DNA from: a virus | Lineage: Duplodnaviria > Caudoviricetes | DNA length: 64,000 bases | Virus record (IMG/VR): IMGVR_UViG_3300021958_011004 | Coordinates: 8,275-72,274 of that record | Reading direction: 5' to 3' (one strand) | Shown here: piece after piece, positions 12,018-64,000 of the stretch | How the letters are laid out: each line of letters opens with the position of its first letter | Position numbering within the stretch: position 1 is the stretch's first letter | Translations under genes and position numbers: made by a program | The notes under the pieces: generated by a model | The model's database searches: none | Told to the model about the DNA's origin: nothing | Seen by the model: the letters and a program-made list of their open reading frames with translations, nothing else

Positions 12018-12406
12018 TGGTGGAGCCGAGGGGATTTGCACCCCTGTCCGCAGCAGTCTTAGTTTGAGTCATCCACAAGCTTGTCTGATTATTTCTCTAA
12101 CCAGAAAGATAGCCACCTTTTTTCACATCCAACTCTTGTGTGGCCTTAGAGTTCCACCTGCTACCAACAGGGTAACCATTTCGGATTCGGCCGAGTCCGG
12201 AGACTCCCTTATAACTTTATCGTCTCATCCATCTGACTAACCTCTTGTTTTACACCGGAAGAGATACCGGCGTGATTAAGCAGCTAAAGCTACAGAATCA
12301 TAGTGTGCGTTATTGTTGGCACTTATAAAATTTGAACTGTTAAGGACGTATCTTCCCTGCTTGCACTCTCCCCTTGATTCTACCCCGTCGAATCTAAATC
12401 GGCCCC
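12018..12406 (-). ncRNA. ssrA: tmRNA (one-piece), tag ANNNAHYDSVALAA*
   Basis: 5' GGGGCCGATTTAGATTCGAC, 3' GGGGTGCAAATCCCCTCGGCTCCACCA with G3-U; tag ORF 12320-12276 ending ALAA-TAA. Confidence 0.95.
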
Positions 12407-39014: not shown

Positions 39015-40631
39015 CTAATAACTATTATCGTCGTTAGATTGTTTCTCTATTTCTATCATGCAGCATCCTACATTTAATAGCATCGTAGCAGCAGAAACAG
39101 CATTCTCAATTGCACATCTTACAACCTTGTGAGGATCAACAATACCAATGTCAAACATATTTCCTAAAACATCATTTCGAGCATCATAACCAACATAATC
39201 ATCTGTAGATAGAATTTGAGTTAATAACGAGTCCGGAGAGTTGTGACCGTTCCTAATAATCTGCTTAAAAGGTTCAACACATGATCTCTGCATAATTTCA
39301 ATTCCAGCTCTAACATCAGCACTAGACTCTGAATCTATATCTACTTGGAGCGACTTAGAAGCTCTTGCCAATGCCACACCACCGCCGGGAAGGATTCCTT
39401 CTTGAAGAGCAGCACGAGTTGCGTGTAGTGCATCATCAACTCTGTCATATCTTTCAATAAGCTCTGACTCTGTTGCTGCACCAATCCTGAGAATTGAAAT
39501 ACCTCCGGCTAGTTGCTGTAGACGGTATTTCAATAATTCAACTTCAACATCTTCCAGCCCAGGATTGTCAAACTGGCTTTTAATTGCATAGACTCTTTGT
39601 TGGATATAATCATCTCTATTATGACCTTCTTGTGCAACAAGCAGGGTGTTTCCTCGATGAGTAATTGTCTTTTTACAAGTACCAAAATCTTCCATTGAGA
39701 ATTTATTCATATCAAAAGAAGCATCAACAATTGTTCCACCCACAACAGCTTGAAGATCATTTAAAAGATCATGTCTTGAATTTCCAAATCCTGGGCTTTT
39801 AATTGCACAAACACGTAATGCTCCTTTTGTTTTGTTGAGCACTAGACCTTGCAACGCATCTCCTTCTACATCGTTAGCGATAACCAGGACAGGTCTGGAG
39901 ACCTCCAAAGAAAGTTCTAATGGTTTCATAAGGTCACGAATAGAAGTAAATTCTCTATTGGCTAAGAAGATCAGGGGCTTATCAAACTCACAAGTCATTT
40001 TATTTTTATCTGTAACAAAATAAGGAGATAAATAGCCACGCTCGACTCTAAAGCCGTCAACAACGCTTAAAGAAGATTTAAACCCTTTTGCTTCTTCAAC
40101 AATAATATTGCCATCAACACCGGAAGCTTCTATCGCATTTACAATAAGCTCAGCAGTTTCTTTTTCACCGTTTGCTGAAATCATTGCAACCTGAAGTAAT
40201 TCTTCTCTACCGTTTACTTCTTTTTTATGGCTAGATATTTCTTTTTTTATTGAATTTAAAGCTAAGTCAATTCCTGCTTTTAACAAGTCGGGCTGAAATC
40301 CCGCTGCTTTCATTTTTAAGCCTTCATTATAAATCTTTTGTGCTAGAACTGTAGCTGTTGTTGTACCATCGCCTGCTTCTTCAGCAGTTCTGGCTGCAGC
40401 TTCCTTGATAACTTTAACACCAAGATTTTGGACTTCATCTGACAAGTTAACTGATTGAGCAACTGTTACCCCGTCTTTAGTGACAATCGGATGATCGCCT
40501 GGTCGCTGAATCAACACTAGCCGTCCTTTTGGTCCCATTGTTGTTTTTACGGCATTTGCTAAAATATCAATACCTTTCTTAAGACTAACATCAAGCTCAT
40601 CTTTAAAAATGACTTCTCTTTTCTTTTCCAA
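39015..40631 (-). CDS. groEL: Chaperonin GroEL (phage-type)
   Basis: TMGPKGR, TKDGVTVA, AGDGTTTAT, DALHATRAA, PGGG; no GGM tail. Confidence 0.97.
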   Translation of the reverse strand: MEKKREVIFKDELDVSLKKGIDILANAVKTTMGPKGRLVLIQRPGDHPIVTKDGVTVAQSVNLSDEVQNLGVKVIKEAAARTAEEAGDGTTTATVLAQKIYNEGLKMKAAGFQPDLLKAGIDLALNSIKKEISSHKKEVNGREELLQVAMISANGEKETAELIVNAIEASGVDGNIIVEEAKGFKSSLSVVDGFRVERGYLSPYFVTDKNKMTCEFDKPLIFLANREFTSIRDLMKPLELSLEVSRPVLVIANDVEGDALQGLVLNKTKGALRVCAIKSPGFGNSRHDLLNDLQAVVGGTIVDASFDMNKFSMEDFGTCKKTITHRGNTLLVAQEGHNRDDYIQQRVYAIKSQFDNPGLEDVEVELLKYRLQQLAGGISILRIGAATESELIERYDRVDDALHATRAALQEGILPGGGVALARASKSLQVDIDSESSADVRAGIEIMQRSCVEPFKQIIRNGHNSPDSLLTQILSTDDYVGYDARNDVLGNMFDIGIVDPHKVVRCAIENAVSAATMLLNVGCCMIEIEKQSNDDNSY

Positions 40632-40634
40632 GTT

Positions 40635-40877
40635 TCACCCTTTTAGAATTTTTCTTTCACTAACAATTGAATATCTGCTTAAAATTTCGTTTAAGCTATT
40701 TGTTTTTTGTAATACTCTTCTTTGTTGACTAATAACATTTTCAGCAACTATTAAGTCACCTTGAACAGCAGCAACTTCATTAACTGCAATAATATTGAGC
40801 TTTCTTAGCTCGAGTTGAATTCTATCATTTAAATAATTCATACCAAACCTCCGAAAGTTTGAACATATTTTGACCAA
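40635..40877 (-). CDS. Hypothetical protein
   Basis: Coupled ORF upstream of groEL; not GroES-like. Confidence 0.45.
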   Translation of the reverse strand: MVKICSNFRRFGMNYLNDRIQLELRKLNIIAVNEVAAVQGDLIVAENVISQQRRVLQKTNSLNEILSRYSIVSERKILKG

Positions 40878-62654: not shown

Positions 62655-63641
62655 TTATTCCCTTCCCATAAAATTGTTGTATTGTGTTGTTAGTTCGTTG
62701 ATTTCATTTAATGTCTCTTCCCAGAGTTGTGTAAAAACAGTTGGAGTACCTGGGTTATTTGTTCCATTGATATCTTCACGTCGTGCTTGATAAATCGAAT
62801 CATCAGGATGATATTCAAACAGATCGTTCTTAGGTTCTGGCCAGTACAGGTTTGTACCACGCGAAGTGAAGCCACCTTTACCATCAGGTACGCGGAAAGT
62901 TTTCACATAATGCATATCTGATTTATTAAAGTTAATTCGTGATGAAGCCTCAGGCAAGACTTTGATAACTTCACGTGCCATATAAGCAGCCAAAAGATTA
63001 TCAGCAGCAGGTTGAATTTGCATATCTTGTCGTTGTGCAATAAAACCTAACAAGTCTTTAAGATTAAGACGCATCAGATAGAAAGAAGTCATACATTTTG
63101 GAAGAATCATTCGAGCATCCATCATAGATACAGCTTTTGAATCTGTCATTTCTGCATAGAGTTGCTTTGATTCTTTTACAAGTTGCAGCCATCGTTCATA
63201 GAATTCTGGACTATTTTGAACAGCCTCAGGAACAACAGCAGGGTCATCACGCAAGTCACGGTCACCTGTACATTGTGCAGCAAAAGAACCGGCACGATGA
63301 CGAATGATATGAGTGACTTCTTGAAAAGAAAGACCGCTAAGTTTGAATGTAAAACCAAGACATTCCATTGGAGTTGGTAGAGCTCGGAAATTAAGTACAT
63401 CTTCTAGATTTGAAGAGAGTTCTTGTAGAGGAACAGTGCTGGGTAGCGTTTCATCATGGTGGTCAGCCCAAGTTGCTTTAACATATTGCCATGCAACATT
63501 TAGAGCTTGTGACCGTGTTGGTGCATCTACTAGCTCAACCTTTAGTGCTTTAAGATTATTGTAGAAAGTTGTGTTTGGTTCTTGACCGAACTTAAGTTCC
63601 ATTGGAAGATTGACCGGAGTCAGATTGGGATTTTGTGGCAT
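62655..63641 (-). CDS. Divergent ThyX-fold flavoprotein (second paralog)
   Basis: FTFKLSGLS, RHRAGSFAAQCTGDR, DARMILP, LKDLLGFIAQR..Q; extra C-terminal region. Confidence 0.75.
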   Translation of the reverse strand: MPQNPNLTPVNLPMELKFGQEPNTTFYNNLKALKVELVDAPTRSQALNVAWQYVKATWADHHDETLPSTVPLQELSSNLEDVLNFRALPTPMECLGFTFKLSGLSFQEVTHIIRHRAGSFAAQCTGDRDLRDDPAVVPEAVQNSPEFYERWLQLVKESKQLYAEMTDSKAVSMMDARMILPKCMTSFYLMRLNLKDLLGFIAQRQDMQIQPAADNLLAAYMAREVIKVLPEASSRINFNKSDMHYVKTFRVPDGKGGFTSRGTNLYWPEPKNDLFEYHPDDSIYQARREDINGTNNPGTPTVFTQLWEETLNEINELTTQYNNFMGRE

Positions 63642-63724: not shown

Positions 63725-63952
63725 TTATTTTATTTCATTAACAGAATTACTAATTTCCTGATCAAAGTCCATTCGAAGTCTGATTAGTGGATTAAAAACA
63801 GCAACTTCTCTTTCTGTGATTAAATGACCTTCAGGTTTGACAAGTTGTCCTTCTACGTCAACAGCTTCAAAGTCGATTTCAGTTTTTTGTTTATATACCA
63901 CTTCAAGTTCTTCTGCGTGTGAAAGTGAAGTTAATAGAATTAAGTTTATCAT
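63725..63952 (-). CDS. GltF/CglF-like gliding-motility protein
   Basis: Signal peptide then VVYKQKTEIDFEAVDVEGQLVKPEG...FNPLIRLRMDF..EI..SV. Confidence 0.7.
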   Translation of the reverse strand: MINLILLTSLSHAEELEVVYKQKTEIDFEAVDVEGQLVKPEGHLITEREVAVFNPLIRLRMDFDQEISNSVNEIK

Positions 63953-64000
63953 GGTTACCTCCAAAAATTAAGTATCTTGAAAAAATGAATTCCTGAGAAT

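What the first reader, a model, noticed from the sequence alone, without database searches (positions are those of the whole stretch)
63725..63952. Phage-encoded GltF/CglF-like gliding-motility component
Seen: signal peptide plus VYKQKTEIDF..VDVEGQLVKPEG...F.PLIRLR.DF..EI..SV, which I recognise as the Myxococcus GltF (CglF) pattern. Knowledge: GltF is a small exported part of the Agl-Glt machinery used for gliding and contact-dependent behaviours, with relatives in Bdellovibrio. Inference: phage modulates host motility/predation or blocks a receptor; I know no described phage example.
Basis: partly seen in the sequence, partly recalled or inferred. Interest (0 to 1): 0.72.

Follow-up and report, generated by a model that had tools for sequence, protein, structure and literature searches.

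The report
Phage copy of gliding linker GltF
A large uncultured aquatic phage carries its own well-preserved, probably exported copy of GltF, the small periplasmic connector of the myxobacterial gliding (Agl-Glt) envelope machine, which points to Myxococcota as hosts and suggests the virus acts on that machine during infection.

Summary
Window 63725-63952 (-) is a 75-aa gene with a strong ribosome-binding site and its own terminator. It matches NCBIfam NF033764 (CglF = GltF) at E 7e-13. It is 50-67% identical to small proteins of uncultured Myxococcota, and 79 of the 80 such loci fetched lie inside GltD/GltE/GltG/CglE clusters.

The contig is viral. It is an IMG/VR record with 35% GC and about 26% estimated completeness. 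It is collinear with a 141-kb contig that encodes a T4-type major capsid protein. No other glt gene is found in five related phage records.

The phage versions number more than 100 clusters in metagenomes and sit in at least four different phage neighbourhoods. They form one clade nested inside the cellular family and are under purifying selection (dN/dS 0.1-0.2). They keep 27 of 29 family-conserved residues, including both segments modelled in the literature to dock on GltG and GltC. Their leader is unusually short (11-13 aa).

I conclude that this is a host-derived connector subunit that the phage exports into the host's Glt-type machine. Whether it sustains the machine or blocks it is not resolved; I lean towards sustains or re-tunes.

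I found no homologue in deposited phage genomes or PHROGs and no paper describing one. This scan has already noted the same thing on other DNA (54 notes, at least 35 genomes).

The parts
63725..63952 (-). gltF-like gene, 75 aa (P0001), stop codon included
   Evidence: ORF list and translation. NF033764 E 6.9e-13. dN/dS 0.11-0.20 among unsaturated phage pairs and pN 0.16 versus pS 0.84 against the nearest relatives.
63957..63962 (-). Shine-Dalgarno GGAGGT, 4 nt before the ATG
   Evidence: Read directly from the sequence.
63914..63952 (-). Minimal export leader, residues 1-13 (hydrophobic core plus SHA|EE)
   Evidence: Alignment A1: a hydrophobic stretch followed by small-x-A then EE/QE, conserved in all phage-type proteins. 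Cellular homologues have 19-26-aa canonical signal peptides at the same place. Export is inferred, not shown.
63839..63892 (-). Residues 21-38 (KQKTEIDFEAVDVEGQLV), equivalent to the GltF strand modelled to pair with the GltG TonB-like C-terminal domain
   Evidence: Mapped through the NF033764 alignment onto residues 94-111 of the 147-aa numbering in PMC11761067. The most conserved block of the family.
63731..63775 (-). Residues 60-74 (RMDFDQEISNSVNEI), equivalent to the C-terminal helix modelled to sit in the GltC crevice
   Evidence: AlphaFold2 predicts a helix at 64-74. Mapped onto residues 133-147 of PMC11761067.
63672..63696 (-). Intrinsic terminator-like hairpin plus T-run, 29 nt after the stop codon
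   Evidence: 1 found, 0.1 expected. A hairpin of different sequence sits at the same place in relative L098.
62655..63641 (-). Downstream neighbour: divergent ThyX-fold gene, first gene of the nucleotide-metabolism/DnaE run. Context only, not part of the unit.
   Evidence: Pfam Thy1 on the L007 orthologue. 85-90% identity to orthologues in L098/L100/L007.

Best explanation
This is a host-derived gene, kept by a lineage of large T4-capsid-type aquatic phages, that encodes the connector subunit GltF of the Agl-Glt-type (gliding/focal-adhesion, or its Nfs-type paralogue) envelope machine of Myxococcota.

Shown: the gene is intact. It has its own ribosome-binding site and terminator, is under purifying selection, and is homologous along its whole mature length to cellular GltF proteins that sit in glt clusters. 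It is the only glt gene on the phage.

Inferred: the short N-terminal leader takes the protein to the periplasm of an infected Myxococcota cell. There the largely unfolded chain docks as host GltF is modelled to do, with the TEIDFE...G.LVKP segment pairing with the TonB-like C-terminal domain of GltG and the C-terminal helix sitting in the TPR protein GltC. The phage thereby occupies the link between the inner-membrane motor side and the outer-membrane platform.

Both docking segments and 27 of 29 family-conserved residues are retained, so I lean towards a working stand-in. It would keep or re-tune the machine after host gene expression is taken over, in the way other phage-borne copies of labile host subunits do, rather than act as a pure poison.
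For: - Family match.
- Cellular context: 79 of 80 cellular loci holding a homologue also hold GltD-like, GltE, GltG and/or CglE next to it, against 0 of 14 phage-type loci. The cluster is annotated in detail in L083.
- Spread in the phylum: 113 of 151 sampled Myxococcota genomes have the family, with scores from 26 to 101 bits that bracket the phage protein's 48.5.
- Tree: phage and short metagenome proteins form one clade (SH-aLRT 93) nested in the cellular radiation. The cellular L008, which has glt neighbours and 47% GC, lies inside that clade.
- Conservation: 27 of 29 columns that are >=90% conserved in 75 cellular proteins are identical in the window protein.
- Selection: dN/dS 0.11-0.20.
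- Viral identity: IMG/VR record. 41 of 96 ORFs are shared collinearly with G001, which encodes a Gp23-type capsid protein at E 2e-65. The GroEL is closest to phage GroELs.
- Structure: coil plus a C-terminal helix, as reported for GltF (PMC11761067).
- GltF is periplasmic, essential for gliding and recruited to focal adhesions (PMC3169522).
Against: - There is no experiment on any phage copy.
- The leader is only 11-13 aa and lacks a basic n-region, so export is not certain.
- The score is below NF033764's 90-bit cut-off.
- The docking model for GltF is itself an AlphaFold prediction without biochemical support.
- The host is inferred, not shown: no CRISPR-like match in five candidate genomes, and phage GC (35%) is below that of every cellular carrier seen (45-70%).
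- Retention of both interfaces fits an over-expressed uncoupler as well as a stand-in.
- The middle segment is neutral or acidic in phage-type proteins but basic in most cellular ones.
Confidence: 0.5

Rival explanations
1. Same target, opposite effect. The phage protein is a competitive blocker or uncoupler. Expressed early and in excess, it saturates GltG and GltC separately, or binds one partner unproductively. This disconnects the motor from the outer-membrane platform and stops gliding or outer-membrane dynamics. Possible benefits are excluding superinfecting phages that use a Glt surface component, or halting the cell.
For: - The gene is a self-contained unit. It has a strong SD and its own terminator. 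Close relatives have an extended -10 (TGGTATAAT) about 55 nt upstream (read), which suggests early, high expression independent of the neighbouring genes.
- It comes alone, without partners.
- The phage-type leader and the charge of the middle segment differ systematically from cellular proteins.
- From my own knowledge: phages are known to shut down type IV pili with small proteins for superinfection exclusion.
Against: - Inhibitors usually keep one interface and lose the rest. Here nearly all conserved residues of both segments are kept.
- The neutral middle segment is shared with the nearest cellular protein L008, so it is not phage-specific.
- There is no evidence for what the receptor is.
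Confidence: 0.3
2. The protein has been recruited to a phage-specific job unrelated to the Glt machine. One example is a partner of the phage GroEL, which it directly precedes in some phages. Another is a periplasmic factor in lysis or envelope remodelling.
For: In L002-L005 the gene abuts the phage Cpn60 gene. The window phage also encodes a GroEL at 39015-40631.
Against: - In the window and in L006/L007 and L098-L101 the gene is about 23 kb from groEL and next to a ThyX-like gene. In L103 it precedes PhoH, and in L102 it lies among small unknown ORFs. The linkage to GroEL is therefore not conserved.
- There is no Cpn10 or any other Pfam match, even at E<=10.
- An exported protein could not meet a cytoplasmic chaperonin.
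- Conservation follows the cellular GltF pattern.
Confidence: 0.08
3. The gene is not a phage function at all. Either the contig is cellular or chimeric, or the gene is a recently captured passenger without selected function.
For: The gene lies at the very end of a fragment estimated at 26% completeness. No terminase or capsid gene was found on this record itself.
Against: - The gene order is conserved on independent contigs from different samples.
- The record is collinear with a capsid-bearing contig.
- The gene is 32% GC and matches the phage, not the 45-70% GC cellular loci.
- Synonymous sites are saturated while the protein is conserved.
- There are more than 100 clusters of phage-type proteins.
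Confidence: 0.04

Closest known systems
GltF = CglF of Myxococcus xanthus (MXAN_4868; NCBIfam NF033764)
   Same: Both are small proteins with an N-terminal export leader. They share the motif pattern YK..TE.DFE...V.G.L.KP.G ... LI.LR..F..E...S. Both have a largely disordered chain with a C-terminal helix. Homology is significant (E 7e-13).
   Different: The score of 48.5 bits is below the 90-bit equivalog cut-off. The gene is encoded alone on a phage, not between gltE and gltG. The leader is 13 aa without a basic residue. The protein carries the FNPLI motif of uncultured Myxococcota, where Myxococcus-type proteins have HSSLI.
GltF-like proteins in glt-type clusters of uncultured aquatic Myxococcota (e.g. 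L008, L083, L053)
   Same: Identity is 55-67% to the window protein over the mature part (up to 83% for other phage copies). The mature part has the same length, and 27 of 29 conserved columns are identical.
   Different: The cellular copies have 19-26-aa canonical signal peptides, mostly a basic middle segment, 45-70% GC, and are flanked by GltD/E/G and CglE.
Phage-borne copies of labile host machine subunits (e.g. cyanophage psbA/D1): an analogy from my own knowledge
   Same: Both are single host-derived subunits of a multi-protein host machine, kept under purifying selection across a phage lineage.
   Different: The target here is a motility/envelope machine and not an energy-metabolism complex. 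Benefit to the phage has not been demonstrated.
Phage proteins that disable type IV pili for superinfection exclusion: an analogy from my own knowledge
   Same: In both cases a phage acts on a host surface-motility apparatus with a small protein.
   Different: Those inhibitors are not homologues of a subunit of the machine they target. This protein is.

Membership tests
GltF/CglF (NF033764, equivalog level) | HMM score at or above the curated cut-off of 90 bits | tested here: not met
   48.5 bits, E 6.9e-13. Only 3 of 113 Myxococcota genomes with a hit reach the cut-off. The L083 copy, which sits inside a glt cluster, scores 52.6 bits.
GltF/CglF family in the broad sense | Homology over the whole mature part, with the family's conserved residues | tested here: met
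   Model positions 25-88 are aligned. 27 of 29 columns that are >=90% conserved in 75 cellular proteins are identical. The protein is nested within cellular sequences in the tree.
GltF/CglF family in the broad sense | Type I signal peptide and periplasmic location | tested here: inconclusive
   The leader is 13 aa with a hydrophobic core and SHA|EE, has no basic n-region, and is conserved in the phage clade. No signal-peptide predictor or experiment was available.
GltF/CglF family in the broad sense | Encoded within a glt cluster next to gltE and gltG | tested here: not met
   None of GltD/E/G/CglE is found in G000-G004 or near any of 14 phage-type loci. The myxo_SS_tail domain family is also absent.
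GltF/CglF family in the broad sense | Required for gliding and recruited to focal adhesions; bridges GltG and GltC | not testable with these tools
   Known for M. xanthus only (PMC3169522 and PMC11761067).
GroES/Cpn10 co-chaperonin (considered because of the groEL adjacency in L002-L005) | Cpn10 fold or profile match, and conserved linkage to groEL | tested here: not met
   No Pfam match at E<=10. The model is coil plus one helix. The gene is 23 kb from groEL in this phage.
Phage moron / auxiliary gene | Host-derived gene forming its own transcription unit between phage genes | tested here: inconclusive
   A terminator is present here and in L098. Relatives have TGGTATAAT upstream. The window's own upstream region is cut by the contig end, and the promoter scan found nothing.

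The most novel reading that the evidence does not exclude
A widespread group of jumbo aquatic phages directly takes control of a bacterial focal-adhesion/gliding machine by injecting its own connector subunit into the periplasmic force-transmission chain. This would switch the proton-motive-force-driven Agl-Glt apparatus of marine Myxococcota on, off or to a phage-specific task. It would be the first viral effector acting on a gliding machine, and it would be a natural minimal GltF that defines the essential GltG and GltC contacts.
Probability: 0.3. Interest if true: 0.8.

Novelty: new variant of a known kind. Interest (0 to 1): 0.6.

Why it matters
GltF is the least understood link of the Agl-Glt machine: a small, mostly unfolded protein that is only modelled to bridge the motor side and the outer-membrane platform.
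- **Defining what GltF needs.** Phages have kept a pared-down copy of 58 conserved mature residues across hundreds of variants. That gives a natural experiment on which residues matter, and a ready reagent for complementation or dominant-negative tests.
- **Host marker.** The copy provides a host marker for a large group of uncultured T4-capsid-type jumbo phages. It ties them to aquatic, mostly uncultured Myxococcota, whose viruses are barely known.
- **A new target for phage auxiliary genes.** If the protein acts as inferred, the range of phage auxiliary genes extends from metabolism to a surface-motility and predation machine.

Tried and rejected
- Pfam and PHROGs give nothing for the protein.
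- tblastn against deposited phage genomes finds no homologue.
- The co-chaperonin idea is rejected. It was raised by the groEL adjacency in L002-L005, but there is no Cpn10 signal and the linkage is not conserved.
- The Terminase_6C search in five records found nothing. Viral identity therefore rests on the Gp23 capsid in the collinear relatives G001 and G003.
- Other glt genes on the phage records: none.
- The upstream ORF at 40635-40877, before the window's own groEL, is not a paralogue.
- A fold search was not run, because the model is coil plus one helix with pTM 0.22 and would give meaningless matches.
- CRISPR-type matches of 40 kb of the window to five candidate host genomes: none. Only conserved-gene similarity appeared, including 83% identity over 53 nt of gltF itself.
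- Nucleotide identity of the phage tmRNA to tmRNAs of Myxococcota metagenome-assembled genomes (MAGs) is about 50% and uninformative.
- Genome handles carry no taxonomy, so the host class could not be named.

Full report
**1. What is there**

The minus strand of window 63725-63952 holds a 75-codon ORF. Its ATG is preceded by GGAGGT with a 4-nt spacer. A terminator-like hairpin with a T-run follows 29 nt after the stop codon (63696-63672; 1 found against 0.1 expected).

The window is bases 8275-72274 of a 72,274-bp IMG/VR virus record estimated to be 26% complete. The gene therefore lies 48 nt from the contig end.

**2. Is the similarity real?**

Pfam finds nothing even at E<=10. NCBIfam NF033764 ('adventurous gliding motility protein CglF') matches at E 6.9e-13 and 48.5 bits, aligning residues 11-74 with model positions 25-88, that is, the whole mature part. 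This is below the curated 90-bit cut-off. That cut-off, however, marks close relatives of Myxococcus:
- In a sample of 151 Myxococcota genomes, 113 have a hit (usually 1-3 copies), with scores from 26 to 101 bits. Only 3 pass the cut-off.
- Fourteen control genomes give nothing at E<=0.001.

**3. What the cellular relatives are**

A scan of one genome per prokaryote species found 137 loci encoding a relative. The 80 best are 46-66% identical to the window protein, and almost all come from Myxococcota or 'Deltaproteobacteria' metagenome-assembled genomes (MAGs).

In a 6.9-Mb Myxococcota genome (L083) the neighbours are, in order, a GltD-like TPR protein, GltE, a GltG/J-like protein, the small protein, GltG and CglE. 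By tblastn with those proteins, 79 of the 80 cellular loci carry such neighbours. None of 14 phage-type loci does.

The cellular proteins have canonical 19-26-aa signal peptides. The cellular family is therefore GltF in its native cluster, as first defined in M. xanthus. There GltF (MXAN_4868) is envelope-located, essential for gliding, recruited to focal adhesions and restricted to Myxococcales and Bdellovibrionales (PMC3169522).

**4. Is the carrier a phage?**

- The record is 35% GC (the gene itself 32%), against 45-70% for the cellular loci.
- Its genes run in one direction. They include a split DnaE, a ThyX-like protein, a deoxyribosyltransferase, helicases, a tmRNA and a GroEL whose nearest deposited relatives are phage GroELs.
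- 41 of its 96 minus-strand ORFs have collinear homologues (mean 58% identity) on the 141-kb viral contig G001.
- G001 and G003 encode a T4 Gp23-type major capsid protein (E 2e-65). G001 also has the same order of GltF-like, ThyX-like and deoxyribosyltransferase genes.
- Completeness estimates imply genomes of roughly 260-280 kb.

No capsid or terminase gene is on the present fragment itself.

**5. The phage gene family**

- More than 100 clusters (at 90% identity) of about 75-aa proteins, 52-92% identical to the query, occur in metagenomes. A profile search finds 1,261 representative clusters of the whole family.
- Phage-type copies sit in at least four neighbourhoods. They lie before a ThyX-like gene (window, L006/7, L098-L101), directly before phage groEL (L002-L005), before phoH (L103) and among small unknown ORFs (L102).
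- None of the five full phage records holds GltD, GltE, GltG, CglE or the GltG/J C-terminal domain.
- In a tree of 148 sequences, the phage and short metagenome proteins form one clade (SH-aLRT 93) nested within the cellular Myxococcota sequences. Two cellular sequences lie inside that clade. One of them, L008, is from a 47%-GC deep-sea MAG and has glt neighbours.
- With only about 60 columns the tree cannot separate one capture from a few. L103 is 83% identical to some cellular proteins but at most 71% identical to other phage copies.

**6. Is it functional?**

Synonymous sites between the window gene and its nearest relatives are saturated (pS 0.77-0.85) while pN is 0.16-0.25. Less diverged phage pairs give dN/dS of 0.11-0.20.

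Of 29 columns that are >=90% conserved in 75 cellular proteins, 27 are identical in the window protein.

Relative L098 has a terminator hairpin of different sequence at the same place. L098, L099 and L100 also share TGGTATAAT, an extended -10, about 55 nt upstream (read). The window's own upstream region is lost at the contig end.

**7. Mechanism**

AlphaFold2 with a 115-sequence alignment gives a chain without tertiary structure (pTM 0.22) and a C-terminal helix at 64-74. This matches the published description of GltF as largely disordered.

In that description an extended segment (94-111) pairs with the beta-sheet of the GltG TonB-like C-terminal domain, and a C-terminal helix (133-147) sits in a crevice of GltC. 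GltF thus bridges the outer-membrane platform to the periplasmic and inner-membrane part (PMC11761067; that model is itself only predicted).

Through the NF033764 alignment, and assuming a 58-residue offset between the 147-aa and 89-aa annotations, those two elements correspond to residues 21-38 and 60-74 here. These are the two best-conserved blocks of the protein.

I infer that the phage protein is exported and takes GltF's place in the host machine.

Systematic differences from most cellular copies are the short, uncharged leader and a neutral or acidic middle segment (mean charge +0.1 in phage-type copies and -1 in the window, against +1.9 in cellular copies). The neutral middle segment is shared with the nearest cellular protein L008.

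Near-complete retention of conserved residues makes me lean towards a working stand-in. An over-expressed bivalent connector could equally uncouple its partners, so the direction of the effect is open.

**8. Host**

The family's restriction to Myxococcota and Bdellovibrionota, and the nesting of the phage clade next to low-GC marine Myxococcota, point to such hosts.

The phage tmRNA (12018-12406) encodes the tag ANNNAHYDSVALAA. Four Myxococcota genomes have related tags:
- G008 and G009: ANNNAHFAVAA
- G007: ANNNKHFALAA
- G340: ANNNAHYALAA

 The ANNNAH[FY] coding pattern occurs in only 2 of 401 sampled Myxococcota genomes. I could not survey other phyla, so this is suggestive only. No CRISPR-like match was found.

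**9. Novelty**

There is no homologue in 50,697 deposited phage records and no PHROG family. None of the papers found describes a phage glt gene, including a 2026 survey of 790 myxophages.

Within this scan the same thing has been noted repeatedly on other DNA: 54 notes in at least 35 genomes, with follow-up reports reaching the same reading. No look-alike was indexed by sequence for this exact protein.

Noticed in passing
window 12018-12406 (-): The phage encodes a tmRNA with tag ANNNAHYDSVALAA. Tags starting ANNN[AK]H[FY] occur in Myxococcota genomes G007, G008, G009 and G340, but the coding pattern was in only 2 of 401 sampled Myxococcota genomes. This is a possible independent host clue. 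Overall tmRNA identity is only about 50%.
   Followed up: partly
L002:3214-3438, L003:10001-10228, L004:10004-10231 and the groEL just downstream: In a more distant phage group (DnaE and GroEL about 40% identical to the window's), the GltF-like gene directly abuts the phage Cpn60 gene with no terminator between them. In the window, groEL (39015-40631) is 23 kb away.
   Followed up: partly
proteins P0167, P0172, P0202, P0226, P0234, P0240, P0246, P0252: Long proteins of 636-1345 aa carry an internal GltF-like stretch. They may be natural fusions of GltF with a neighbouring Glt protein, or merged gene calls.
   Followed up: no
window residues 43-52 of the protein (63797-63826): The segment between the two conserved blocks is basic in most cellular GltF-like proteins (DRKRA type, mean charge +1.9) but neutral or acidic in phage-type ones (EREVA/ERQEA). 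The nearest cellular protein L008 is also neutral.
   Followed up: partly
L009, L013, L021, L070, L084, L086 and others: Contigs of 60-70% GC with complete glt-type clusters are titled 'Enterobacterales', 'Klebsiella pneumoniae', 'Alphaproteobacteria' or 'Rhodobacterales' MAGs, so these record titles look mislabelled. One phage-type protein (P0015) is deposited under an Asgard archaeon MAG and is probably a mis-binned phage contig.
   Followed up: no
L098:1-8000, L100, L101 (the region beyond this contig's end): Close relatives show what lies upstream of the gene: a 295-298-aa unknown protein, an NT5C/polynucleotide-kinase-like protein, a Fapy-DNA glycosylase, ClpS and an HhH-GPD glycosylase, all co-directional.
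   Followed up: partly
L103:5443-5814 and L102:2822-3643: Other GltF-carrying phage contigs encode counter-defence-type proteins near the gene (Pfam Acb5 and Gad2 hits as precomputed).
   Followed up: no
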